DNA of 64,000 nt, taken from assembly GCA_037379345.1 (NCBI GenBank), contig CM074524.1, positions 28,206,750-28,270,749 on the forward strand. Direction: 5' to 3'. The stretch's first letter is position 1. Each line of letters starts with the position of its first letter. A program made the position numbers. Of this stretch, positions 3,001 through 12,000 are shown in pieces. The DNA is from Perna viridis. Lineage: Eukaryota.

Positions 3001-6000
3001 ATTGATATTCAAAGCAAGGCCCTGTGACAGGTCTAAGAATTATAAATATAAACACCTGTGCTAGCACATGATAGGCCTGACTCATCATTTATTATATGTT
3101 TTAAGAACTCTGAAACAAAAAATATATAACAAATGTTACATGAAAAGAAGCTATCTTTTGTAATGACATTGTAATCTGATGAACTGTTTACAGACAGGCG
3201 GATACCATCTGTTTAGGTATAGAAATGATAACTAATTTCACTATTTTCATGCAGGGTAACAGTGTCATGTAAATAGTTCTAAGACCTTTTTCCCTAAGGA
3301 AAATTGTCATTTATTCTTCAATTTCTATTGTTTTATGTTAGATTTGAAACACACGATTTATTGTCCGGAGTATAATATAAGTGCATGAGAAATCCACATA
3401 CTTTGTTTGTCAGATAATAATGCAGGATATTAAAAGGGGTCAATTTATGTCTCTTAAATACTTGCATTGGTAGGATAATGACGGATTCATATTTGCATAT
3501 TAACCTCCAGAATGCCATACTTATTCTTTTGGTATACATTAATTACAAATTGGACACTTATAAAATGTCTTTTCAAAGAATCATTCACATTCTTTTTTTG
3601 ATATCAGTCCTTGGTTTCTAAAGTAATGAGTAATGATTGTTTTTTTGTAAATCATTCTTTATGCTGATGTGACCACTGATTTACCATTTATGACGCAATA
3701 GCATGCCCATGCTATTTAATCACCACTGATATTTTCACATGACAATGGAAGAGGGAGGTTAGAGAGCTGTAAAACCTAGATTTGACCCATCAATTGAAAT
3801 ACCTGTACCAAGTCAAGACCATTGTGGTACCAGCTACACCAGTAATGTAATATCTATTTTGCAAGATTTATTTTAGACTTGACTTGATTATGGATCAGAT
3901 TAGTGTCTGGTAATTTTGTTGTTATCCTTCAATGTCTTAAAATTACCCCCTTTTCAAGAAGTACATTGGTCCATTGGTTACCAGTTGTCTATGTCTCAAG
4001 GTACATTATATGCCTGTGATCATAGGTGTTTAAATGTTGCTTGACTCCACTTTAAGACAAATGCACTCATGTTAAAATACAAATACATTACTGTAATGTA
4101 TTACCACTAATATATGAGTAACTCTCTTTTGTGGCATCATGTTAATAAATTCCTACCTCATTTGACATGTGTATAGAGAGATTCCTGAGACAAGCCTGAA
4201 CAGATCCTGGAGACTTACCGTGTTAGACTTGTGTATAGAGATTCCTGAGACAAGCCAGAACAGATCCTGGGGACTTACCTCGTTTGACCTGTGTATAGAG
4301 AGATTCCTGAGACAAGCCACAGCAGCTCCCAGAGTATTTCTATGTGAGGCTTTAGACTTGATTATGTTGTGTAGAAGAGGCAGGGCACCATACTGTACAA
4401 TTAAAACCTGATTCTCATCTGAAAATAGAAGATTTATGATTTACATGTAAATGAACACAAATGAACAACTGGTGAATTACTGTCAATTTAGTATTTTTCA
4501 TGGTGAACTAATTTACTTTTTATACAATTGACAAATAATCCAAAAAAATAGAACCTTAATTTTTTTTATACACTATGAATAACTATTAATGATTTTTTAA
4601 AACAATTCCCAAACTAATACCTGTAAATATGTTCAGTACATAAGCAACAGTGAAAAATACATTTTCAGCATTTTAATGAATCAAGGGAACCAGGCTTGAA
4701 ATAGTAATCAAAAGATTATAAGTTCATTGATGATGATGACAGGGTAAACAGACAAACAAAAAAACAAAAGAACATGAAATACCCAAAAAACACATACAAG
4801 AAAACAAAAGTAAATAACAAGGACTCAGTTAAAAACTGGGAGCTTGAACCAAGTGTGCAGGTGGGGTAACATACTCTGCTTTTCTAGAAGTACCCACCAA
4901 GTTGCTCATAAAATGTCACATCCGCGATAGACCAATAAATTAAACAAATCTAATTTACTTAATTTGGTTTAGTTATGACTATAATTATCAGGGTTTTGTC
5001 CTATGTTCAACCTCCCATACACATACTTCCTTTTCCAGAGTTAAAGATTGAGAATCAGATACTAGTACATTATGTACATGTAGTTGCCTGATCTAAGATC
5101 TGTACAAGCCTGTTACCACATGTGATCACAAGTTATCATGAAAATACTATGGCATTTAAATTTTGCTGAAGTCAACCATAAAAACTTAGAGTTTTTATAC
5201 AAGAATGACGAATTTAGGTCATGTCAAGTCATAACTTTCTTAATTGACATTCTATCAGCCCATTGATTTTAATATCAGTTTTTAATTTGATATTAATTGA
5301 CTTATTATATGTATACCGGCACTTCAATTTATAACTGATAAAAACTTCAGGAGTAATCATAGTACATTTATTATAACTATTTACTGCATTCTAAGGAAAT
5401 ATCAGGTGCATTGATACATATCTAATGCTTATATGAATGATTAAAAAATAGTCAATTATTTCAAAATACATTAATACACTCCATTAAGCAATAAAGGTTC
5501 TTAGCAGCTTATTTTCCATCCATCAACCAAGACAAAATTATCACCTATATAGACCATTAAGATTATATAAGCAGATAATACAACAATCATTTATATAAGA
5601 TTTGCACCTTTAGATAACGATATAAAACAGCTGTTCCAGGTAAAACTTTACAGCTGATTAGACAGAACTACTATAATCCTTTATAGACAGTTTGTATAAC
5701 TGATGAGTAAGACTCCACTGTATGTACTTTATAGGCAATGCTTTATAGTGAGAGAAATGTCACTGATAACAGTGACCAGGTGTTAATCATAACAAAGCCA
5801 AACAGAATGGATCATGTCATGTAACAGGGGCTGATTATGAGTCAGGATTACTAAGATTTATATAAAATCAAAGGCTGGTCAAGGATTTCAGGCTGTGAAA
5901 CAGAAATAAAAACCAAATGTATAATGAGCCAAGATCATTTTGTGGTTAAATTTGTGCAATATGTGTGTGCAAAATCAAGATTCCATGCAAAAAAAAAATA

Positions 6001-9000: not shown

Positions 9001-12000
9001 ATACTGAATGTCGGTATCTCCTGAGTGTAGGATATCAACTAAAACTGGAATAGCACCTTTAGTTACCAATTCATTTCTGTTTGATTCTGAAAATAAAAAC
9101 AAATTCTTCATTTCATTCCTGTATATATAACTTCCATCAAATATTGAGGGTTTTATGAGATTCCTTTTGTTTCAAAACTGTAATTTCAATGTTACTTTGA
9201 AATCGAATAAAGTGGGTATTAATTTTTGAATTTGAAGGATATTGAATTATTGTACTCAATGTTCAAATAATAAAATGTAGGTAATTCAAGTTTTCAGGCC
9301 CATTTTTCTATCCAGGTAGTTTCCATCAAAACATATCACATATAAGACCTACGTTGATGGGTAAGGTTAAGTACAGCGCCAGCGGCATTTCGTTGGACTC
9401 TGAGATCGGAAGATTTCATCAGGTTCAGCAATGGTCTGATTCCATGGTTAGAAACAATCAATTGCTTGTTTGAATCTACAAAGAAGGTATTGTAGTTTAA
9501 ACAAATGAAAATCTGTCAATGTAACACATTCCTGTTTTTGTTTCAGTCCTTACATGAAGGTATTTTACCCTGTATATATCTACTGCACCAAACAAAACAA
9601 TGTGAAAAACCATAATGGAACAGGTTATCCTTTCAAAAATCACATTTATTGTGCACATGAGAAAATAAATGTTTTACTGTCAGTTTCAAAACAAAAAATT
9701 TATTAGTACCATATGTCTTTTTTTTCACGTGCGGAAAATTTTGCATTTTATTCAAAAATTGGTAGAGGATTTTTTGTGTTATAATAATTGTGACAACAAG
9801 ATAAGACAAACATTAATAACCATTTTTTATCTTCATAAATATTTCACAATATAATTTTCACATTCCAACTTTGACTGGGAATTTAGAGAAAATTAAATCA
9901 CTGCAAAAATAACCACTGATACATTAAGTTTTTGCATTGTGATCCAGCTGACTGGCATTTGTCCATCATTCTCCATGTCTACTCCATTGACCTCAACATT
10001 GTTTTAAATACATGCATATATTGTGTAGTAACTGTTTAGAAATAACAGGAAAATTTCTGATGAACTGATAACATAAGGTAATCTTGATCCTGGAGGATCA
10101 TAAAAGAATCTGCATTTACGGCCCAAAATATGAAGAAAAGGTTGCTTGGGTCAAACAGCCATTCAAATGATTACCATTTGTTTTGTTAGTTATTTTGACA
10201 CTTTGTTTTCACACCTGAAACAACCATTCACTGATAATCAAAAAACATACCCTATTCAAATACCTAATTCAGTTGTAACTAACTCAGAGCTGTGTATAAT
10301 TATGTGTAAACAACACTTGTATATTTTTGTAATTTTTGAAAATTATAAAGATCTGTAATTTCCAAGTTTTTACATGTATGAATAAATAGTGCTATCACAG
10401 GAACGTTATGCATGGTTATGCAATATGTAATGAACCTATGGTAAGTACACAGAAGAAAAAATTGTTTCAATGCAAGATTTCATTAACATACTGCCTTGAT
10501 TCAAATTTTCAGTTATTTTTGTCGCTTTGCACAGCAATTACATGTTTACTGGTGTATAACTGGCAAGTGTACAATATATGTAAAGGTATACACATATCAT
10601 GATTGTTTTTTGTTTTGGAAAATGACAATGGTGGATACTCCAAGAATTCTTATTTTATTACAGCAAATCATAATGATCCATTAGATTGTTATACCAACCT
10701 GTAGTAGCCAAGGCAGTAATACCAACCTGTAGTAGCCAAAGCAGTAATACCAACCTGTAGTAGCCAAGGCAGTAATACCAACCTGTAGTAGCCAAGGCAG
10801 TAATACCAACCTGTAGTAGCCAAAGCAGTAATACCAACCTGTAGTAGCCAAGGCAGTAATACCAACCTGTAGTAGCCAAGGCAGTAATACCAACCTGTAG
10901 TAGCCAAGGCAGTAATACCAACCTGTAGTAGCCAAGGCAGTAATACCAACCTGTAGTAGCCAAAGCAGTAATACCAACCTGTAGTAGCCAAGGCAGTAAT
11001 ACAACCACATGTGTTACACTGCACTTCAATATTCTTAGAATGTAACAGTTGAACCAGAGGGGGGATAACTCCACAGGTCACCAACACTTCTTTATTTTCT
11101 GCTAAAATTATAGAAGCAGTAAAAATTGTTTACTTAAGTACGAGTCCACATAAAATTTTCCATATTAAAGTGATTCATGGTGAAGAAAAACCCACCAAAC
11201 AAACAATGCTTTTTCAATCTGCATATGCTATATTTTTTACAAAACAGTTGTCCTTTCCTTATTTAGATCTGTACTTTTGAGAAAATCATACATTTATCTC
11301 CCACCAAAACCAACCAATTCATACAAAATCAAGATTGAGAACTGTTGCAAAGTGCTAATTTCATGTAAAATCTATATAAATTTTATCTTAAAAACGCAAC
11401 ACACATATGAAGAACTATGACTTGTTATGTGGTCTGTAACTGATTCTGAATAAGAAATAAAAGTGAATTCGGTGGGTTTTTGACATGCATGAATCACCTC
11501 CTGTCTGATTTTTATAAAGACTGCTACTTAATACATGTACTTACAATGCAATAGCAGCTAATGGTTTTTTTAAAAGAAGACGCATGATTATTAAGACAAG
11601 GACAAGTAAAAACTTCATCTGATATTTCACTTCCATGACATATATACTGTGAAAGTACTTATATTCATGAAGTATCAATTTTCTTGTATTTCATTGTCGC
11701 TTTAAACTACAGAATTAAAATCCCAACAAAATACGAATTTCTGCTTATTTGTATTGTGGGAAATGTCAAAACACAAATTAAAAATCCACAAACCAATGAT
11801 TTGTCTACAATCCACAAAAACTGACTTCCTCCAATAAAAGTACTTTTACAGTTATATTTTTTTATATACCAAGACCTGTAGCTTTGTCAGTCAGTGGAGC
11901 AAAACAAAATATTGACTTGAACTGTAACCCATCAAGCTACCATAAAATACAAAAGATAAGATTTATATCGTTATATGTTTGGAATAAATACAAAAAAAAA

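What the first reader, a model, noticed from the sequence alone, without database searches (positions are those of the whole stretch)
4155..11000. Two independent donor-site duplications in the same gene
Seen: 2 of the 11 reconstructed donors carry unrelated tandem arrays (28-bp and 60-62-bp units) whose units straddle the exon/intron boundary, although junctions make up a tiny share of the gene. Inference: either a mutational process focused on 5' splice sites (e.g. R-loop or polymerase-pausing slippage) or tolerance of such duplications because the proximal donor preserves the protein. If genome-wide, this would be a little-described route to splice-site proliferation.
Basis: inference. Interest (0 to 1): 0.7.

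Follow-up and report, generated by a model that had tools for sequence, protein, structure and literature searches.

The report
Tandem repeats copying two splice donors
Two short tandem repeats in one mussel-like armadillo-repeat gene each begin in an exon end and repeat its splice donor, an arrangement already described in several human genes, so this is a tidy but ordinary case.

Summary
On the minus strand lies a Vac8-like armadillo-repeat gene. I placed 11 exons and 11 donors in the window by homology to bivalve proteins, exon by exon.

- **Array A** (10691-11006) has a 28-bp unit in 11 copies. Each unit is the last 21 nt of exon 4 plus 7 intron nt, giving 11 identical donors ACAG|GTTGGTAT.
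- **Array B** (4164-4319) has a 60-62-bp unit. It repeats the last 37-39 nt of exon 8 three times, giving three donors.

Only the first donor of each array gives the protein seen in relatives. Most other donors shift the frame and meet early stops.

Tolerance through use of the first donor matches published human cases: F7, CBS, 6-16, LMNB2 and PDGF (PMC1557585). So the route is not "little described". A splice-site-focused mutation process has no support here. Array A is flanked by an 8/9-nt near-repeat typical of slippage. Neither array tends to form hairpins. Two of five arrays at donors has a nominal chance of 0.005 to 0.07, depending on the null, for one gene picked after the fact.

RNA evidence, polymorphism, other mollusc genomes and the genome-wide test were out of reach. 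Verdict: a new member of a known kind, of low to moderate interest.

The parts
28610..28642 (-). Exon 0, coding part: ATG...GAT (MESTPRKKGYD), donor GAT|GTAAGT, first intron base 28609
   Evidence: tblastn of the first 22 residues of P0001 gave 8 of 13 identical, E 0.15 in that small search. Sequence read. Phase 0 joins exon 1 in frame. This is the weakest exon of the model.
16096..16330 (-). Exon 1 (235 nt), donor ATGG|GTAAAT
   Evidence: tblastn to P0001 79% identity, E 6e-37; borders
13843..13965 (-). Exon 2 (123 nt), donor AGAA|GTAAGG
13256..13375 (-). Exon 3 (120 nt), donor CCAG|GTAAGA; Arm repeat
10979..11101 (-). Exon 4 (123 nt), one armadillo repeat, ends ...CGCITALATT + G (phase 1); donor ACAG|GTTGGTAT
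   Evidence: Pfam Arm E 7e-12; tblastn 87.5% to P0001; borders
10691..11006 (-). Array A: 28-bp unit x 11 (21 nt exon end + 7 nt intron). It carries 11 identical donors, with last exonic bases at 10979 down to 10699 in steps of 28. One C/T variant position follows the pattern C T C C C C T C C T C.
   Evidence: TRF; unit register and donors; all three frames are open across the array; local only
9353..9475 (-). Exon 5 (123 nt), acceptor ...tttgtag|AT; donor CAAC|GTAGGT. The other two frames carry stops after 5 and 8 codons.
8878..9086 (-). Exon 6 (209 nt), donor AAGG|GTAGGA
8461..8506 (-). Exon 7 (46 nt), donor GATG|GTAAGT
4279..4418 (-). Exon 8 (140 nt), one armadillo repeat, ends ...ACLRNLSIHRSNE (phase 0); donor CGAG|GTAAGTCC
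   Evidence: Pfam Arm; tblastn 75% to P0001; borders
4157..4319 (-). Array B. Exon-end copies lie at 4317-4279, 4255-4219 (with a 2-nt deletion) and 4195-4157. Copies of the 23-nt intron start lie at 4278-4256 and 4218-4196. Donors: CGAG|GTAAGTCC (+0), CACG|GTAAGTCT (+60 nt, in frame), TGAG|GTAGGAAT (+122 nt, out of frame).
   Evidence: TRF 4164-4319; alignments and donors; tblastn also finds the third exon-end copy as ACLRNLSIHMSNE
2486..2611 (-). Exon 9 (126 nt), acceptor ...ggtag|GTA; donor CAGG|GTATAC
784..898 (-). Exon 10 (115 nt), donor GAAG|GTAAGT. The rest of the gene (about residues 465-603 of the Mytilus relative) lies beyond the window's left end.

Best explanation
These are two independent, ordinary minisatellite-type tandem duplications inside a Vac8-like armadillo-repeat gene of a bivalve. 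The founding unit of each happened to include the last bases of an exon and the first bases of the following intron, so the splice donor is reiterated into the intron (11 times after exon 4, 3 times after exon 8).

Shown:
- The arrays, their registers and the repeated donors.
- The arrays are local and unrelated in length and age (97% against 82-95% identity between copies).
- Only the first donor of each array gives the junction seen in relatives.
- Most other donors lead into early stop codons.
- Array A is flanked by a near-repeat in conserved coding sequence (GGTTGTA in the exon, GGTTGGTA at the junction, 28 nt apart). This is the classic substrate for replication slippage, followed by expansion.

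Inferred:
- The spliceosome uses the most upstream donor, as demonstrated for the human F7 minisatellite. Transcripts from out-of-frame donors would be removed by nonsense-mediated decay.
- The arrays are therefore effectively intronic and nearly neutral.
- Two of them in one gene is a coincidence in a repeat-rich locus, not a sign of a donor-directed process.
For: Arrays and copy numbers.

Gene identity:
- Pfam Arm reaches its curated cut-off (20.6 bits) in 6 of the 10 ORF stretches scanned. A 7th, the exon-7 stretch, matches only weakly (12.8 bits, E 0.13), and 3 show no Arm match.
- Relatives found are Mytilus galloprovincialis LOC143055699 (84% over the exon-6 query), Ostrea edulis and Pinctada imbricata.
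- A named 'Vacuolar protein 8' appears among more distant hits.

Exon model: phases are consistent over 11 exons.

Array A:
- 11 identical donors 28 nt apart; extra lengths modulo 3 leave only donors 1, 4, 7 and 10 in frame.
- Exon 5 read in the two wrong frames stops after 5 and 8 codons.
- Flanking near-repeat: TGTGGTTGTA before unit 1 against CAGGTTGGTA at unit ends. The exon arm encodes CGCI, which is kept in all 3 relatives.

Array B: donors at +0, +60 (in frame) and +122 nt. Exon 9 read in the frame set by +122 stops after 2 codons.

The units are not dispersed repeats.

All hits of two searches with the read-through peptides covered only the true exon part: 4 hits with 27-34% of the query covered, and 3 hits with 56% covered.

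Precedent, from PMC1557585 (abstract, introduction, discussion):
- F7 has a 37-bp minisatellite whose first monomer spans the exon 7 / IVS7 boundary; only the most upstream donor is used.
- The same anatomy is listed for 6-16, CBS, LMNB2 and PDGF.
- The CBS repeat is listed as '31 bp VNTR (exon 13-intron 13)' in PMC1395315 (table passage).
Against: - No RNA data, so donor choice in this animal is untested. The scanning rule comes from mammalian cells. PMC1557585 itself says that in 6-16 and CBS two pseudo-sites are used besides the authentic donor, and that an earlier study with duplicated sites gave the opposite result.
- Under the founder-unit null, two of five arrays at donors is nominally unlikely (P 0.005; 0.016 if acceptors count as targets). 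0 of 10 acceptors are affected.
- Array B does not fit a simple one-step slippage. It ends with a 39-44-nt partial copy. The 25 exon nt before copy 1 match the 25 nt before copies 2 and 3 at 14 of 25 (empirical P about 5e-4). Its history is unresolved.
- Assembly error cannot be excluded without reads.
Confidence: 0.7

Rival explanations
1. A mutational process is focused on 5' splice sites (R-loops, polymerase or U1-linked pausing, or the GT-rich donor motif itself acting as a slippage arm). Under this reading donors are hot spots for the birth of tandem arrays.
For: - 2 of the gene's 5 arrays (TRF score >= 100) include a donor, against 0.13 expected under the founder-unit null, P(>=2) = 0.005.
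- 0 of 10 acceptors are affected.
- In array A, one slippage arm is the donor sequence itself.
Against: - One gene, chosen because it showed the pattern.
- Under the footprint null P is 0.07, or 0.14 with acceptors included.
- The other three arrays of the gene are plainly intronic (against the model).
- There is no hairpin tendency on either strand.
- The rest of the window holds no other multi-exon gene to test. Its long ORFs are two intronless receptor-like ORFs and a reverse-transcriptase fragment.
Confidence: 0.08
2. The arrays are kept because they do something. They might supply alternative in-frame donors: +20 residues at exon 8; +28, +56 or +84 residues at exon 4. Or they might act as a cluster of U1-binding sites that strengthens recognition of a weak exon or intron.
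For: - Array B's second donor is as good as the first (8 of 11 matches each to a recalled consensus, CAG|GTAAGTAT) and adds exactly 60 nt with no stop.
- All three frames are open through array A, so donors 4, 7 and 10 give no premature stop.
- The exon-4 donor has T at +3, and its copies are nearly identical (97%).
- PMC1557585 reports constitutive use of proximal pseudo-sites in 6-16 and CBS.
Against: - The insertions would fall at the end of helix 3 of an armadillo repeat and are absent from all relatives aligned (3 of 3).
- No hit of two searches with the read-through peptides covered them.
- 7 of 10 extra donors in array A are out of frame.
- High identity between copies is what a young or homogenising minisatellite shows anyway.
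Confidence: 0.08
3. One or both arrays are assembly artefacts, or an unusual and possibly harmful allele of the sequenced individual, rather than a fixed feature of the species.
For: Tandem arrays are error-prone in assemblies. The human counterparts are copy-number polymorphic (5-9 repeats in F7, 15-20 in CBS; PMC1557585). Nothing in the window can verify copy number.
Against: - Array A carries an irregular internal variant pattern (C T C C C C T C C T C).
- Array B's copies differ by substitutions and a 2-nt indel.
- This looks like real, diverging sequence. The window has no N.
Confidence: 0.06

Closest known systems
Human F7 intron 7 minisatellite (37-bp VNTR), Borensztajn et al. 2006, PMC1557585
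   Same: The first monomer spans the exon-intron boundary, so the authentic donor is followed by identical pseudo-donors (4-8 in F7, 10 in array A). The donor is non-consensus in both (UGG/gugggu there, CAG/guuggu here). Some downstream sites would keep the frame but, in F7, are not used.
   Different: - The F7 unit is mostly intronic (4 exon nt + 33 intron nt). Array A's unit is mostly exonic (21 + 7), and array B's is 37-39 + 23.
- Use of the first donor is demonstrated for F7 and only inferred here.
- Polymorphism is known there and untested here.
- Here there are two such arrays in one gene.
Human CBS 31-bp VNTR at exon 13 / intron 13, and the minisatellites of 6-16, LMNB2 and PDGF (as listed in PMC1557585; CBS also in PMC1395315)
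   Same: All are tandem arrays that reiterate a splice donor into the intron, with units of similar size (31 to 100 bp).
   Different: In CBS and 6-16 the two nearest pseudo-sites are reported to be used as well. I read only the secondary descriptions, not the primary papers.
Tandem-duplication model of intron gain (Rogers 1989) and its cases, as described in PMC4974935 and PMC2891723
   Same: A short tandem duplication carries an AG|GT motif. The copies are removed by splicing, so the protein is unchanged. PMC4974935 cites a multiply duplicated 24-bp AGGT segment in fission yeast genes that resembles array A.
   Different: Here the introns are far larger than the arrays: 1503 nt against 308 nt of array for intron 4, and 1667 nt against about 120 nt for intron 8 (coordinates). 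The duplications extend existing introns. They do not create new ones.
Internal tandem repeats at exon-intron boundaries of human genes in segmental duplications (De Grassi and Ciccarelli 2009, PMC2812944)
   Same: A TRF-based survey showed that tandem repeats at exon-intron boundaries change splicing patterns. It found 27 curated intron modifications (passages read).
   Different: That survey compares recent paralogs and has transcript support. It concerns primates. It does not test donors against acceptors or against a random expectation.

Membership tests
Minisatellite spanning an exon-intron boundary (F7 IVS7 type) | Head-to-tail tandem array of a 10-100-bp unit | tested here: met
   TRF: 28 bp x 11.3 at 97%; 60 bp x 2.5 at 88%
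Minisatellite spanning an exon-intron boundary (F7 IVS7 type) | The first monomer contains the exon-intron junction, so the donor is reiterated downstream | tested here: met
   Junctions were placed by homology and phase. There are 11 identical donors in A and 3 donors in B. No transcript evidence.
Minisatellite spanning an exon-intron boundary (F7 IVS7 type) | Only, or mainly, the most upstream donor is used | not testable with these tools
   No RNA data. Indirect evidence only: relatives lack any insertion at either junction (3 of 3), and all hits of two read-through searches covered only the exon part.
Minisatellite spanning an exon-intron boundary (F7 IVS7 type) | Copy number varies between individuals (VNTR) | not testable with these tools
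   Only a single sequence is available.
Intron gain by tandem duplication of an AGGT segment (Rogers model) | The new intron consists of the duplicated copy itself, bounded by the two AG|GT copies | tested here: not met
   Intron 4 spans 10978-9476 and intron 8 spans 4278-2612. The arrays fill only their first 308 and about 120 nt. The acceptors lie in unique sequence.
Armadillo-repeat protein, Vac8-like | Tandem Arm repeats recognised by Pfam PF00514 | tested here: met
   6 of the 10 ORF stretches scanned reach the curated cut-off of 20.6 bits (20.7 to 45.4 bits). The exon-7 stretch scores 12.8 bits, below it.
Armadillo-repeat protein, Vac8-like | Orthology with fungal Vac8 and its function | not tested
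   Only the name 'Vacuolar protein 8' on distant hits. The joined protein was not built or searched.

The most novel reading that the evidence does not exclude
In this bivalve lineage, splice donors may be preferred birthplaces of minisatellites. The GT-rich donor motif would serve as a slippage arm, or transcription and U1-coupled events would raise duplication rates there. Donor proliferation would then be a systematic source of alternative 5' splice sites and of intron lengthening, with this gene caught twice.
Probability: 0.07. Interest if true: 0.6.

Novelty: new member of a known kind. Interest (0 to 1): 0.25.

Why it matters
If the ordinary reading is right, the value is practical.

- **Gene prediction.** Arrays that reiterate donors are traps for gene predictors in repeat-rich mollusc genomes. 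All three frames are open across array A, and array B offers an in-frame 20-residue extension.
- **Splicing model.** The locus would be a natural test of donor choice among identical sites outside mammals.

A donor-focused mutation bias would matter for how alternative 5' splice sites and intron length evolve. That claim needs a genome-wide count. This one gene cannot carry it.

Tried and rejected
- **Hairpin-driven slippage.** Two to three units of each array were folded as DNA on both strands. All four fold no better than shuffles (z +0.85 to +2.1; 164-198 of 200 shuffles fold at least as well). Rejected.
- **Dispersed repeat or transposon origin of the units.** There are no copies outside the arrays on either strand. 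Self-BLAST lists other dispersed families but none that involves the arrays. Rejected.
- **"Array-rich gene".** With the first gene span this looked significant (5 of 7 arrays in 26% of the window, P 0.015). After exon 0 was found the span is 45% of the window and P is 0.15. Dropped.
- **A third donor array.** The 34-bp x 3 array at 16520-16621 carries ATG...GCA|GTAACT in each unit and looked like a possible first exon. Exon 0 was then found at 28610-28642, so that array is intronic. Rejected.
- **A paralog near 62 kb.** A weak tblastn hit (E 0.48) lies in a dispersed repeat at 61941-62172. Treated as spurious.
- **Annotated isoforms containing array peptides.** Two searches for longer proteins gave 4 hits of 8000 candidates scored and 3 hits of 82 candidates. 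All cover only the exon part. This is weak evidence, because the species' own proteins do not seem to be in the set (best identity 84-85%).
- **Calls that could not be made.**
  - The listing of cluster members for Mytilus isoforms could not be made.
  - Gao and Lynch 2009 and Zhuo et al. 2007 are not held. I saw only their titles in reference lists.
  - PMC10078293 was searched for splice-site enrichment of tandem repeats. The passages shown (12 of 15 places) gave nothing on donors against acceptors.
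Full report
**What is there**

The window has no N and is AT-rich, with GC 0.29-0.38. Tandem Repeats Finder reports 94 rows for the window. Seven distinct arrays score at least 100: 4164-4319, 6791-7082, 10691-11006, 14944-15297, 16520-16621, 32181-32252 and 50299-50393. The two arrays of the finding are the first and the third.

**The gene**

Stop-to-stop frames on the minus strand carry armadillo-repeat peptides. Pfam Arm reaches its curated cut-off in 6 of the 10 stretches scanned. A seventh, the exon-7 stretch, matches only weakly (12.8 bits, E 0.13), and three show no Arm match.

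A search with the exon-6 peptide alone found three longer proteins:
- Mytilus galloprovincialis LOC143055699 (603 aa, 84% identity over the query);
- an Ostrea edulis protein (67%);
- a partial Pinctada imbricata protein (76% over 63% of the query).

More distant hits are named Vacuolar protein 8.

tblastn of these three proteins against the window places ten exons. The splice sites and phases are mutually consistent. The first 22 residues of the Mytilus protein locate one more exon at 28610-28642, reading MESTPRKKGYD|GTAAGT. It has 8 of 13 identities, and phase 0 fits exon 1.

The 3' part of the gene lies off the left end.

I did not build, search or fold the joined coding sequence or protein, so nothing here rests on a full-length product. 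The exon borders rest on homology and GT/AG rules, not on RNA.

**Array A**

Exon 4 ends ...TGT GGT TGT ATT ACT GCC TTG GCT ACT ACA G|GTTGGTAT. The 28-bp unit TTACTGCCTTGGCTACTACAG+GTTGGTA occurs 11 times. The donor context ACAG|GTTGGTA therefore occurs 11 times, 28 nt apart. The copies differ at one position only, in the pattern C T C C C C T C C T C.

The relatives read ...ATS|DSNK, or ...ATT|D..., with nothing in between. So donor 1 is the one that gives the conserved protein.

Extra lengths are multiples of 28. Only donors 4, 7 and 10 stay in frame. They would add 28, 56 or 84 residues, since the exon frame stays open through the array. The other seven donors put exon 5 into frames that stop after 5 or 8 codons.

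The 7 nt just before unit 1 (GGTTGTA) nearly repeat the unit end (GGTTGGTA). The exon arm encodes CGCI, which is kept in all three relatives. The last unit is followed by GTTGGTAT and then unique intron sequence. Both arms therefore look ancestral, and the array has the form expected of slippage between two near-repeats 28 nt apart, followed by expansion.

**Array B**

Exon 8 ends ...GCT TGT CTC AGG AAT CTC TCT ATA CAC AGG TCA AAC GAG|GTAAGTCC. This exon end (37-39 nt) occurs three times and the 23-nt intron start occurs twice. The donors are:
- CGAG|GTAAGTCC;
- CACG|GTAAGTCT, at +60 nt, in frame with no stop;
- TGAG|GTAGGAAT, at +122 nt, after which exon 9 would stop after 2 codons.

Copy 3 of the exon end is closest to copy 1 (2 differences in 39). 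Copy 2 carries a 2-nt deletion and more substitutions.

The array is not a whole number of units plus a short arm. In addition, the 25 exon nt before copy 1 match the 25 nt before copies 2 and 3 at 14 of 25. About 5 in 10,000 positions of the window match that well. The array may therefore be close to three units whose first lies wholly in the exon. I could not reconstruct its history or say which donor is ancestral.

**Are the arrays special?**

- The units occur nowhere else in the window.
- Neither strand of either array folds better than shuffled sequence.
- All hits of the two searches with the read-through peptides covered only the exon part. This is weak evidence, because the species' own proteins seem to be absent from the set.

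**Chance**

Five arrays with score at least 100 lie in the 27,859 nt of gene within the window. I used two nulls.

| Null model | Expected number at donors | P(>=2), donors only | P(>=2), donors + acceptors |
|---|---|---|---|
| Founder unit (one period long) dropped at random | 0.13 | 0.005 | 0.016 |
| Whole array footprint dropped at random | 0.475 | 0.07 | 0.14 |

An earlier run with the shorter span gave 0.0097 and 0.14. I think the founder-unit null is the fairer one, because an array can only overlap a donor if its unit contained it.

Even so, this is one gene singled out because it showed the pattern. A per-gene chance of about 0.5% would still yield many such genes in a large, repeat-rich genome (inference). 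The rest of the window offers no further multi-exon gene. Its long ORFs are a reverse-transcriptase fragment and two intronless receptor-like ORFs.

**What is known**

Borensztajn et al. 2006 (PMC1557585; abstract, introduction and discussion read) describe the same anatomy. [quoted passage not shown]
- They name the human 6-16, CBS, LMNB2, PDGF and F7 genes.
- With 50 constructs they show that in F7 only the most upstream of the identical donors is used, although the others are functional.
- In 6-16 and CBS, two proximal pseudo-sites are also used.

The CBS repeat is listed as "31 bp VNTR (exon 13-intron 13)" in PMC1395315. De Grassi and Ciccarelli 2009 (PMC2812944; passages) surveyed tandem repeats at exon-intron boundaries in human duplicated genes. 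The tandem-duplication model of intron gain, and a multiply duplicated 24-bp AGGT segment in fission yeast, are summarised in PMC4974935 (passages) and PMC2891723 (passages).

Two directly relevant papers are not held, and I saw only their titles: Gao and Lynch 2009, and Zhuo et al. 2007. Two searches aimed at a genome-wide treatment, or at molluscs, returned nothing specific: 3 papers, and 110 papers of which 12 were listed. I cannot say that a donor-versus-acceptor enrichment test is absent from print.

**Verdict**

The mechanism I favour is ordinary slippage-type duplication that happened to include a donor and is tolerated because the first donor is used. A donor-focused mutational process is not excluded, but nothing found here supports it. 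The kind of feature is already known. What is new is a mollusc example, with two arrays in one gene.

Noticed in passing
window 11006 and 4319 (minus strand), starts of arrays A and B: Both arrays begin at the homologous codon pair of their armadillo repeat: Gly-Cys (GGT TGT) in exon 4 and Ala-Cys (GCT TGT) in exon 8. By the coordinates of the Arm matches these are Pfam Arm profile positions 34/35. Exons 2-5 are each 120-123 nt, about one repeat per exon and all in phase 1, so donors sit at near-equivalent repeat positions. This is probably a coincidence.
   Followed up: partly
window 16520-16621: A 34-bp x 3 array (94% matches) lies in intron 0, about 190 nt upstream of the exon 1 acceptor. 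On the minus strand each unit reads ATGGACCATGCA|GTAACT. I first suspected a first exon with a repeated donor, but exon 0 lies at 28610-28642.
   Followed up: yes
window 6791-7082 and 14944-15297: Two more sizeable arrays sit in introns of the same gene: 33 bp x 8.8 in intron 7 and 177 bp x 2 in intron 1. Neither touches an exon.
   Followed up: partly
window 26356-27739 (minus strand): Three adjacent ORFs (115, 207 and 138 aa) look like fragments of a reverse transcriptase of a LINE-type element. They lie inside intron 0 of the armadillo-repeat gene. No family search was run.
   Followed up: no
window 33819-35072 (minus) and 52740-54062 (plus): Two long intronless ORFs (417 and 440 aa) are clearly related to each other, with seven-transmembrane-receptor-like sequence. 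Their DNA matches at 75% over 265 nt. They look like a divergently oriented paralog pair. No family search was run.
   Followed up: no
window 4679-4935, 37730-37955, 46133-46373, 58629-58897, 61938-62172; also 19858-20080, 35559-35780, 51472-51681, 57933-58162; and 11170-11534 with 14154-14314, 20156-20238, 21056-21182, 60485-60834: At least three families of dispersed repeats of 200-360 bp, at 73-93% identity, occur in both orientations. Copies lie in introns 3 and 7 of the gene. The weak tblastn hit near 62 kb falls in one of them.
   Followed up: partly
window 50299-50393: A perfect 49-bp x 1.9 duplication (100% matches). On the minus strand it contains GTGAGT. No exon was identified there.
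   Followed up: no
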